Assembly (NCBI RefSeq): GCF_006345805.1 | Contig: NW_021825760.1 | Location: 1 to 14,527, forward strand | Length of the DNA: 14,527 nucleotides | Direction: 5' to 3' | DNA from: Octopus sinensis | Lineage: Eukaryota | Part shown: positions 461 through 11,451 of the stretch, piece by piece | Position numbering within the stretch: position 1 is the stretch's first letter | Layout: each line of letters opens with the position of its first letter | Made by a program: the position numbers and the translations under genes | Notes under the pieces: generated by a model | Databases searched by the model: none | What the model saw: only the letters and a program-made list of their open reading frames with translations | Told to the model about the DNA's origin: nothing

Positions 461-691
461 CTATTTCTTTATTACCCACAAGGGGCTAAACACAGAGGGG
501 ATAAACAAGGACAGACATAGGTATTAAGTCGATTACATCGACCCCAGTGCGTAACTGGTACCTAATTTATCGACCCCGAAAGGATGAAAGGCAAAGTCAA
601 CCTCGGCGGAATTTGAACTCACAACGTAACGACAGACGAGACACCACTAAGCATTTCGGCCGGCGTGCTCACGTTTCTGCCAGCTCGCCGC
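461..691 (-). mobile_element. tRNA-derived SINE, family A, full-length copy
   Basis: The minus strand reads GCGGCGAGCTGGCAGAAACG (A-box-like), then GAGTTCAAATTCCGCC (B-box), a central GCCTTTCATCCTTTCGGGGTCGATAAATT..GTACCAG, and a tail ending TAATAAAGAAATAG. It aligns end to end with 10796-11030 at roughly 90% identity by eye. Confidence 0.92.
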
Positions 692-1275: not shown

Positions 1276-2094
1276 GCTCTCTGTTACAACAATAGGCTCT
1301 AATAAATAGATCACAACTTGCGTAATGTTTTCTGTTTTTTTGTTGTATATTTTTGCGGAATTCTTTTTGCTGTGTCAGAAATATATAGATAAAAGATGAG
1401 TAATGTGTGTTTAGAGAGTGTATATGCAGACAACAGATGAGTAATGTATGTATACAGTGTATATATGAATGAATAGCATTAAATGGGGAAAAATACCCCC
1501 CAGGAGTGCGTTTTGTTCGCTAAATACATATCTTGAAGGGATTCACCTACATAATATACTGAGTTGAAAAAATTAAAATAAAACAGAAAAACTCTCCGTT
1601 CTATTAGATGTATTATCCTTGCAATTAGTAAAAAAAAATTCCCTCTATGAGAGTTTAAATTTTAAAAACAGAAAACAAGGGAACAAGTTCAATAGGTTAA
1701 CAAGTTAAAAATTTTGGGGCAATGATTTGACTAAAACCTGGATATGGAAGGGTTTCTCTATTCAATATTTCTCACCGGATCTAATATGTAATACCCCTTC
1801 TATGAAGTCCTCACACTTTGTGGTTTTTTGGGGTGTTTTTTTTTGAAGACTGAGAGGTTGGTTTATTAGAGACCCCTAAATTTTTTTTATACCTATTTGC
1901 TTTTTTTTTTACGAGGAGGTATCAAGGATATCGTGCCTTGCTTCGGTGGAGAATTTAATATGAAACATTTGTCCAAATATAAGGTAGCTAGGTGTGGTCC
2001 CTGATTGTTAAAGCCGGCTGATGAAAGTAACAGTAATGTTTCTAACTTATTAGACCTCATCAGCAGAATACAAGGTGTTGCACACATACATACA

Positions 2095-4853: not shown

Positions 4854-4895
4854 AATTTCAACAATTGAGGTTCCCAAATCCGATTCAAGGAATTC

Positions 4896-4947
4896 TGAGC
4901 TGAAGAAAGAAATGTCGAATTGACTAATCTAGAAACGTACGTTCTCA
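4896..4947 (+). ncRNA. candidate minimal type I hammerhead ribozyme (Penelope/retrozyme type)
   Basis: The sequence reads TGAG-CTGAAGA-[stem II region]-GAAAC-GTAC-GTT-CTCA. The CUGANGA and GAAA core motifs are intact, stem I is TGAG/CTCA, stem III is the palindrome AACGTACGTT, and the NUH site is GUU. Stem II is imperfect, with an A-A closing mismatch. Confidence 0.65.
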
Positions 4948-5041
4948 AATAACCTTTGCACTTGATTTTTTAATGTTTTTTCCCCCATACTTTTGTGAGT
5001 TAGTTTAGACAAACACTATCTGAGAGAGATCTTCTTTAAGT

Positions 5042-5084
5042 ATTAGAAATAGCTGAAGAAATTTCTTTAGCTGCTATTTCTAAT
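5042..5084. repeat. 43-bp imperfect palindrome
   Basis: ATTAGAAATAGC (5042-5053) and GCTATTTCTAAT (5073-5084) are perfect 12-bp arms enclosing TGAAGAAA/TTTCTTTA. Confidence 0.85.
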
Positions 5085-5183
5085 GAGTTCAGTATGTGGC
5101 AAAGTAATTTATTTTACTAAGCCCTTTTATATAATGTTATATATATATATATATATATATATAGTACATACATACATATATAT

Positions 5184-5401
5184 GACAATTAATTGGTTTT
5201 CATAATAAAACTCCGAGTTTCGGATGCCGGGGCTGAAGTCTGCTTCGGCATCTCGTTTGTCTCAATAACTAATGAAATGCCGAAGCAAACTTCAGCCCCG
5301 TCATCCGAGTTTTATTATGACAACATTGTCACTTATTATATTTATAGATAAATTCCTCTGTCTTACATAGTATCGAGGTCTCATTCATTCTTTCGTTGTC
5401 A
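5184..5401. mobile_element. short Penelope-like terminal-repeat relic containing a foldback (5184-5330) of two degenerate hammerhead motifs, bounded by (TA)n
   Basis: Arms 5200-5260 and 5268-5320 are reverse complements apart from an 8-nt indel and about 5 mismatches. GACAAT/ATTGTC closes the outer ends. The inverted repeat is certain; the Penelope assignment is inferred from the hammerhead architecture. Confidence 0.6.
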
Positions 5402-5539
5402 TATTATATATATATATATATATATACATGCATTAATGTAAACGCACACACAGACACATACTCACATTCACATACATTGTATATTGTGTAACCATCTTAT
5501 AACATAACGTTACGGTTTTGCATCAAAGCGAGTGTCTAT

Positions 5540-10795: not shown

Positions 10796-11030
10796 GGCGG
10801 GGCGAGCTGGCAGAAACGTTAGCACGCCGGGCGAAATGCTTAGCGACATTTCGTATGCCGTTACGTTCTGAGTTCAAATTCCGCCGAGGTCGACTTTGCC
10901 TTTCATCCTTTCGGGGTCGATAAATTAAGTACCAGTTACGCACTGGGGTCGATGTAATCGACTTAACCCCTTTGTCTGTCCTTGTTTGTCCCCTCTGTGT
11001 TTAGCCCCTTGTGGGCAGTAAAAGAAATAA
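10796..11030 (+). mobile_element. tRNA-derived SINE, family A, full-length copy
   Basis: GGCGAGCTGGCAGAAACGTTAG head, B-box GTTCAAATT at 10872-10880, and the same tail as 461-691. Confidence 0.92.
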
Positions 11031-11224
11031 GAAACGTTAGCACACCGGACAAAATACTTAGCGGCATTTTGTCCGTCCTTACGTTCAGTGTTCAAATACT
11101 GCCTGGGTCGACTTTGCAATTCATCCTTTCAGGGTCGACAAAATAAGTACCAGTTGAGTATTAGGGGTCGATGTAATCTAGTCTTCCAGTAGAATTGCTG
11201 GCCTTGTGTCAAAATTTGAAACGA
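11030..11224 (+). mobile_element. SINE family A, older copy lacking the first ~15 nt, with a second tail type
   Basis: AGAAACGTTAGCAC..GTTCAAAT..GGTCGACTTTGC..TCATCCTTTC..AAGTACCAGTTG..GGGGTCGATGTAATC, followed by the tail GGCCTTGTGTCAAAATTTGAAAC. Confidence 0.85.
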
Positions 11225-11248: not shown

Positions 11249-11451
11249 CTGCCAGAAACGTTTGCATGCCGGGCGAAATTCTTAGTGGTGTTTCGTCTGT
11301 CTTTACGTTCTTAGTTCAAATTCCGCCGAGATCGACTTTGCCTATCATCCTTTCGGGGTCGATAAATTAAGTACCAGTTGCGTACTGGGGTCGATCTACA
11401 GGACTGGCCCCCACCCCAAAAATTTCGGGCCTTGTGCCGAGAGTAGAAAAG
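11249..11451 (+). mobile_element. SINE family A, copy with a third tail type
   Basis: Same head and core as the copies above. The tail is GACTGGCCCCCACCCCAAAAATTTCGGGCCTTGTGCCGAGAGTAGAAAAG. Confidence 0.88.

What the first reader, a model, noticed from the sequence alone, without database searches (positions are those of the whole stretch)
5184..5330. ~150-bp foldback made of two back-to-back degenerate hammerheads with complementary lesions
Seen, + arm: AATAA-CTAATGA-AATGCCG-(16 nt)-CGTCATC-CGA[8-nt deletion]GTT-TTATT (5264-5316). Seen, - arm: A-CAAACGA-GATGCCG-(16 nt)-CGGCATC-CGAAAC-TCGGA-GTT-TTATT (5259 down to 5204). Merging the arms gives AATAA CT(G)ATGA GATGCCG..CGGCATC CGAAAC TCGGA GTT^TTATT. 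That is a complete type I hammerhead with stem I AATAA/TTATT, a 7-bp stem II and a near-palindromic stem III (AACTCGGAGTT); the core G in brackets is inferred and absent from both arms. Known: Penelope-like elements often leave inverted terminal-repeat structures. Inference: this is an inverted-terminus relic of a second hammerhead-bearing family, different in sequence from the one at 4896. It would form a long dsRNA hairpin if transcribed.
Basis: partly seen in the sequence, partly recalled or inferred. Interest (0 to 1): 0.7.

Follow-up and report, generated by a model that had tools for sequence, protein, structure and literature searches.

The report
Mirror-image Penelope stubs, dead hammerheads
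This hairpin is two short, decayed end-pieces of a common Penelope-type jumping gene joined head to head, a known arrangement; the family's stubs mostly begin just in front of its hammerhead-ribozyme motif, often with one extra G, so they are likely DNA copies that ran off the capped start of the element's RNA.

Summary
The foldback is real (z about -13). It is one copy of an abundant family. They link to an RT + C-terminal GIY-YIG ORF bearing the Hydra-clade motifs of Penelope-like elements; the family differs from published Hydra-1_Obim. The lesions are not complementary: the minus arm is simply cut off inside the core at the junction, and the plus arm decayed later (G5A, 8-nt deletion). Neither arm is predicted to cleave. 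The plus arm runs on to about 5407. Inverted truncated copies with a one-sided tail are published PLE features. Added here: 5' ends pile up 11-21 nt before the core (26 of 66 arms at risk, about 10x background), not at the cut site. An extra G precedes 7 of 10 ends at -20/-21 (control 7 of 32). 44 of 46 pairs have exactly one tailed arm. Best model: two run-off cDNAs of uncleaved, capped RNA joined head to head (inferred). The scan found such foldbacks before on other DNA, and the cap-G idea in another genome.

The parts
5173..5254 (-). Inverted, 5'-truncated pLTR copy without tail: begins at core G8 (C3-N7 missing), keeps stem II, GAAA, stem III, GUU site (5211-5209) and the 3' strand of stem I; outer end fades into TA repeat (about 5173-5180)
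   Evidence: (unit positions 26-111, 89.7% to family majority)
5255..5407 (+). Forward, 5'-truncated pLTR copy with tail: starts 14 nt before the core; core CTAATGA at 5269-5275 (G5A), 8-nt deletion removing GAAA, GUU site 5309-5311, 6-nt deletion near 5325, tail to about 5407
   Evidence: (unit positions 8-173, 83.7%)
5254..5255 (.). Head-to-head junction, no spacer
   Evidence: contig of run X15 spans it with 0 differences
5138..5183 (.). Left flank, (TA)n / TACA microsatellite, likely target; a target-site duplication cannot be read
5402..5430 (.). Right flank, (AT)n run

Best explanation
The hairpin is two 5'-truncated copies of the terminal repeat of a Hydra-clade Penelope-like retrotransposon, joined head to head in a TA microsatellite and since decayed, and it likely arose in one insertion when two short cDNAs, each run off near the capped 5' end of uncleaved element RNA, were joined. 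Shown: family membership, ORF linkage, a different junction in each copy, one tailed and one tail-less arm, a pile-up of 5' ends just before the ribozyme, and none at the cut site. Inferred: the RT-endonuclease cuts both strands of the TA target and primes two cDNAs at two internal sites about 47 and about 109 nt past the cut site. Each cDNA copies through the unprocessed hammerhead to a transcription start about 20 nt before the core (A of TTTC|ATAGCG; possibly also the G at -14/-15) and adds C opposite the cap. The two 3' ends are then trimmed and joined, often by microhomology. In this copy both ribozymes are predicted dead and would be locked in the hairpin.
For: 1014 candidates in G000, 40 scored. 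Full-length copy L074: pLTR, ORF, 3' UTR, pLTR. ORF motifs RWK, DKT, FDIVDFY, YKDD, CxCx5C, CxxC/CxH, no CCHH match the Hydra definition and resemble Hydra-1_Obim by eye. In 96 arms sampled by a downstream 24-mer, 26 of 66 at risk end in the 11 nt from -11 to -21: hazard 0.036/nt versus about 0.003 upstream, binomial p 2e-20. None ends at the first base after the cut site (+51) and 2 lie within 3 nt. G precedes 7 of 10 ends at -20/-21 and 6 of 9 at G|TTT, versus 7 of 32 ends elsewhere; Fisher p 0.008 (-20/-21 only), 0.001 (all), 0.004 (dropping two Gs the partner arm could supply). 44 of 46 pairs have exactly one tailed arm (p 2e-11 against 50:50). The tail-less arm reaches at least 3 nt further 5' in 10 of those 44 (hand count). 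The G occurs on tail-less arms (L023/L111, L165), on a tailed arm (L147) and on both arms of L150, so both arm types can be run-off products. Arms of a pair share 60 variants versus 8-25 expected. In vitro, PAc cuts and extends both strands, starts RT at two internal sites, and uses uncleaved RNA (PMC11167929).
Against: No 5' end of RNA was mapped: only contigs of runs guessed to be RNA were available. The G classes were chosen after seeing the data, and the numbers are small. In the wider pattern searches only 7-8 of 18 junctions at -20 had G (hand count; p 0.03 for 8 of 18), though 6 of the others are explained by microhomology or AT runs. More ends lie at -11 to -14, the base of extended stem I (21 of 90), than at -20/-21 (10 of 90), which needs trimming or a second start. 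PAc showed no difference in RT start between strands, so the strict one-tail rule is not explained by that paper. Rfam did not detect the hammerhead even in an intact copy. The predicted minimum-energy fold of an intact copy keeps stems I and II but not the catalytic core. Covariation within the family is weak. Confidence in the PLE identity alone is about 0.97; the figure below is for the run-off and joining mechanism.
Confidence: 0.55

Rival explanations
1. Same element, but the inverted arm arises by self-priming (snap-back of the nascent cDNA or of an antisense RNA), and the pile-up of ends marks RT stalling or folding at the ribozyme's extended stem I or the upstream U tract, not a transcription start.
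For: Self-priming is the published reading of head-to-head PLE palindromes (PMC3846280 passages). 21 of 90 arms end at the base of stem I. Several junctions are perfect palindromes at CG or TA, and a few are centred on stem II (L142, L098, L129). The tailed arm reaches further 5' in 17 of 44 pairs (hand count).
Against: Simple snap-back of a tailed cDNA cannot give a tail-less arm that reaches further 5' (10 of 44) or an extra G on the tail-less arm or on both arms. Only about 3 of 90 arms end in the U tract itself (hand-checked).
Confidence: 0.35
2. The foldback is itself a mobile unit (MITE-like or non-autonomous palindrome) or a selected hairpin RNA whose two ribozymes were inactivated in a complementary way.
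For: Very stable hairpin; many similar foldbacks in the genome.
Against: Junctions differ among copies. Arms are unequal and continuous with a 3' UTR and RT-EN ORF in longer copies. No target duplication: the TATGACAA repeats at 5182 and 5317 are internal to the unit. The minus-arm 'lesion' is a truncation.
Confidence: 0.05

Closest known systems
Hydra clade of C-terminal EN+ Penelope-like elements, incl. Hydra-1_Obim (Craig et al. 2021, PMC8557442; passages, section 11, supplement part 2 of 59 and search hits seen)
   Same: RWK, DKT, CxCx5C linker, no CCHH, CxxC and CxH around the conserved E and N, about 3 kb, (TA)n targets, type I hammerhead with ACTC-N-GAGT stem III and often a U at the cut site, inverted 5'-truncated copy, tail at one end only.
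   Different: The hammerhead sequence differs from Hydra-1_Obim, and a 13-nt core motif of ours had 0 hits in the supplement text (long runs in it are cut). The protein is only roughly 50-60% identical by eye (not computed). Longer 3' UTR (about 600-850 nt), tail about 60 nt rather than 30-40, extended stem I, one extra C before GAAA. The passages read give no 5'-end hotspot or extra G.
PAc, Poseidon of Anolis carolinensis (Frangieh et al. 2024, PMC11167929; parts 1-2 of 4 read)
   Same: Two internal RT starts bounding a tail downstream of the hammerhead, ATT/AT-rich targets, uncleaved RNA as template, both strands cut and extended.
   Different: Different clade. There the ORF starts inside the ribozyme; here the likely start codon lies about 260 nt downstream of the core. 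No strand bias of RT starts was reported there.
Penelope elements of Adineta vaga and Drosophila virilis (PMC3846280, PMC2377424; passages)
   Same: Head-to-head inverted pLTRs, palindromic junctions, optional tail on one pLTR, Inr-like motif or mapped start inside the pLTR.
   Different: The authors favour self-priming; here both arm types show signs of being separate run-off copies.
Non-LTR retrozymes (PMC7229834 passages; bioRxiv 10.64898/2026.07.22.740005 part 1 of 5)
   Same: Short non-coding sequence with a type I hammerhead related to PLE pLTRs.
   Different: Retrozymes are head-to-tail arrays. This family's short copies are head-to-head or solo stubs of a coding element. The neighbour at 4870-5142 fits the retrozyme pattern better.

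Membership tests
EN+ Penelope-like element | Single ORF with RT and GIY-YIG endonuclease | tested here: met
   RT and EN motifs in order in ORF fragments of linked copies, all broken by stops or frameshifts. Pfam gave only RVT_1 at E 0.027, below cut-off, for 1 of 4 fragments; the endonuclease C-terminal part was not among the four.
EN+ Penelope-like element | pLTR with partial tandem and inverted 5'-truncated copies | tested here: met
   L074 pLTR-ORF-pLTR plus a partial tandem; inverted partner in 42 of 88 sampled loci within the fetched flank.
EN+ Penelope-like element | Optional tail at one end | tested here: met
   3' ends cluster at unit positions about 115-119 and about 175-180; 44 of 46 pairs mixed.
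Hydra clade | RWK and DKT motifs, CxCx5C linker, no CCHH, CxxC/CxH in EN | tested here: met
   RMRWK, SDKTK, CSCRVKNLC, no Cys between the GIY- and YIG-like motifs, CGLC, CPH against the definition.
Hydra clade | Insertion into (TA)n | tested here: met
   Window flanks and most printed copy ends run into TA repeats; not formally counted.
Hydra clade | Placement in an RT phylogeny | not tested
   Reference proteins were seen only as paper text; comparison by eye.
Type I hammerhead ribozyme (family sequence) | CUGANGA, GAAA, NUH with three stems | tested here: met
   66 of 126 copies core-intact; 92.4% of cells paired, slid controls 34-52%.
Type I hammerhead ribozyme (family sequence) | Covariation or Rfam model match | tested here: inconclusive
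   6 pairs with two-sided changes, not above shuffles (233 of 500); cell-level measures 4-6 of 500; no Rfam hammerhead hit.
Type I hammerhead ribozyme (family sequence) | Self-cleavage | not testable with these tools
   Needs an in vitro assay; the short palindromic stem III suggests dimer or protein help (PMC4209133).
Type I hammerhead ribozyme (this window copy) | Intact core on either strand | tested here: not met
   Plus arm G5A and no GAAA; minus arm lacks C3-N7; a core pattern scan of the window finds neither.
MITE | Fixed TIR unit with shared interior and TSD | tested here: not met
   Junctions and arm lengths differ among copies; continuous with a retroelement ORF.
Non-LTR retrozyme | Head-to-tail tandem array of short hammerhead-bearing monomers | tested here: not met
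   Short copies are inverted pairs or solo; a few longer partial tandems occur (L034, L116).

The most novel reading that the evidence does not exclude
Hydra-clade Penelope elements routinely make 'strong-stop'-like cDNAs: a dimeric RT-endonuclease primes one cDNA at each of two internal sites on opposite strands of the cut, both run off the capped RNA start just ahead of an uncleaved hammerhead, and they are joined head to head. The genome's mini-foldbacks would then be a fossil map of the transcription start, and the one-tail rule would reflect an asymmetric dimer.
Probability: 0.45. Interest if true: 0.55.

Novelty: new member of a known kind. Interest (0 to 1): 0.3.

Why it matters
The locus itself is an ordinary dead relic. 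Its family bears on an open question, how Penelope-like elements make inverted ends and what their hammerhead is for. The counts point to uncleaved, capped RNA as the template in vivo and to two separately primed cDNAs rather than snap-back. That gives exact predictions (start at -20, C addition, one start site per strand) testable by CAGE and by the existing in vitro assay.

Tried and rejected
Rfam: no hammerhead hit in the window (only generic miRNA hairpin hits below threshold at this site), in intact copy L107, or at 4860-5130. TATGACAA at 5182 and 5317 as a target duplication or Crypton-like terminus: rejected, both are internal to the unit. Neptune clade, my first guess from the linker: rejected because CCHH is absent and the linker is CxCx5C. 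Cleaved RNA as template: no pile-up at the cut site. Expression: no RNA holder listed. Contigs of runs only guessed to be RNA cover the family and the pLTR-ORF junction but cannot show a start, strand or level; none of the listed contigs of X1 or X4 spans this copy's junction. Small-RNA and editing maps could not be made. No protein-coding gene was evident among 51 window ORFs of 90 aa or more, mostly microsatellite (by eye, not scanned against families). Literature searches for a cap-derived G or start-site pile-up in PLEs listed nothing on point. The library lacks most subscription papers, Repbase and Dfam could not be searched, and I read only part of one supplement. Rows dropped before counts: 4 of 100 anchor hits as duplicates; 6 stem-II/snap-back-type arms placed by hand in the +1..+20 bin and left out of the G control.

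Full report
Observation. The quoted sequence is present. 5180-5335 folds into one hairpin of -78.7 kcal/mol, z -12.85, on either strand. The arms differ by a few substitutions and by two deletions in the plus arm, 8 and 6 nt. A contig of public run X15 spans 5218-5355 without a difference, though that run may be the window's own source.

The family. A search of the window's genome gave 1014 candidates, 40 scored, at 71-94% identity. Most other copies read AATAA CTGATGA GATGCCGG-loop-CCGGCATC C GAA ACTC T GAGT T TTATT. On 86 aligned copies the three stems are 92.4% paired against 34-52% for slid controls, and stem I extends to 11 pairs; two-sided changes are few and partly at shuffle level. Rfam has no matching model. 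The layout, with ACTC-N-GAGT stem III and U at the cut site, recurs in the published table of Hydra-clade hammerheads.

The lesions. In the window the minus arm starts at 5254, at core position G8; the letters read as a mutated core are the plus arm's leader. The plus arm starts at 5255, has G5A and has lost GAAA in an 8-nt deletion between two GA dinucleotides. It runs on to about 5407. One lesion is thus a truncation and the other later decay. They lie on opposite strands and cannot complement each other. Neither strand is predicted to cleave.

The parent element. Copies that extend upstream continue through a 600-850 nt TA/TG-rich 3' UTR into a broken ORF. L074 is full length: (TA)n, pLTR with hammerhead, ORF, 3' UTR, pLTR, partial tandem. 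Fragments show RMRWK, SDKTK, QFDIVDFY, MGSYDG, YKDD, a CSCRVKNLC linker, a GIY-YIG region without inner cysteines, CGLC and CPH. These are the listed marks of the Hydra clade (PMC8557442 section 11). Pfam support is weak (RVT_1, E 0.027). Hydra-1_Obim is clearly homologous by eye but has a different hammerhead, so this is another family. The same paper describes inverted 5'-truncated copies and a tail at one end only, and PMC3846280 describes head-to-head pLTRs with palindromic junctions. The architecture is therefore known.

How the stubs arise. I sampled copies with a 24-mer downstream of the cut site, which does not select for inversions: 158 exact hits, 100 listed and all recovered in fetched loci, 96 after removing duplicates. 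42 of 88 loci have an inverted partner within the fetched flank. 5' ends pile up 11-21 nt before the core: 26 of 66 arms at risk, about ten times the upstream hazard. None starts at the base after the cut site, so uncleaved RNA is the usual template, as for PAc in vitro. The upper edge is sharp at TTTC|ATAGCG, which fits an initiator consensus (recalled, not from a call). At -20/-21 a G not in the template precedes 7 of 10 ends, and 6 of 9 at G|TTT, against 7 of 32 elsewhere (Fisher p 0.001-0.008; classes chosen after seeing the data). Wider pattern searches gave 7-8 G among 18 junctions at -20; 6 of the rest are microhomology or AT-run joins and 4 are unexplained (hand count; these overlap the first set). 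An extra G is the recalled signature of RT copying a 5' cap. Against a single start, 21 of 90 arms end at the base of stem I and 10 at -20/-21.

Two cDNAs or snap-back. Of 46 distinct head-to-head pairs (20 from the foldback-biased search, 25 from the unbiased set, plus the window), 44 have one tailed and one tail-less arm. Arms share subfamily variants (60 against 8-25 expected). The tailed arm reaches further 5' in 17, the tail-less arm in 10, and 17 are within 2 nt (hand count). The extra G is seen on tail-less arms, on a tailed arm, and on both arms of L150. Simple snap-back of one tailed cDNA does not give this; two separately primed cDNAs joined at their 3' ends do. PAc cuts and extends both strands and is predicted to be a dimer. 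Self-priming remains a fair rival, and later deletions at hairpin tips could blur the picture.

RNA. No holder was on record as RNA, and contigs cannot show starts. Transcription, dsRNA, editing and cleavage are untested.

Earlier scan notes. The scan has reported such foldbacks in this and other genomes.

Verdict. A real but ordinary decayed insertion of a Hydra-clade Penelope-like family that I did not find in the one published set checked. The family statistics give a modest, testable mechanistic lead. Interest 0.3.

Noticed in passing
window 4870-5142 (+): 273-bp piece 99% identical to a young 557-bp tandem family with its own type I hammerhead pattern (CTGAAGA at 4900). Arrays on G000 C13, C6, C10; no frame over 82 aa in one array; no similarity to the Hydra element. 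Looks like a non-LTR retrozyme; 1695 candidates.
   Followed up: partly
window about 1990-2063 (-): A third hammerhead-like core (CTGATGA..GAAAC) flagged by the pattern scan.
   Followed up: no
window 468-689 with 10801-11022, 11030-11166 and 11249-11405: Inverted dispersed copies (77-92%) of a SINE-like repeat about 10 kb apart.
   Followed up: no
L142, L098, L129, L151: Foldbacks centred on or near stem II of the ribozyme, as if joined through the ribozyme's own complementary strands.
   Followed up: partly
family 3' ends, unit positions about 119 and 180: Both preferred 3' ends fall at a repeated TGTCA(CA)TATTAT motif, which could anneal to TA/ATT targets or be an endonuclease site.
   Followed up: no
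L074:2601-3100: Contigs of runs guessed to be RNA (X2, X4) bridge the pLTR-ORF junction at about 96-97% identity to L074, hinting at another full-length copy.
   Followed up: no
L068 upstream of the ORF match: A fragment of a more divergent RT of the same kind sits next to this family's copy.
   Followed up: no
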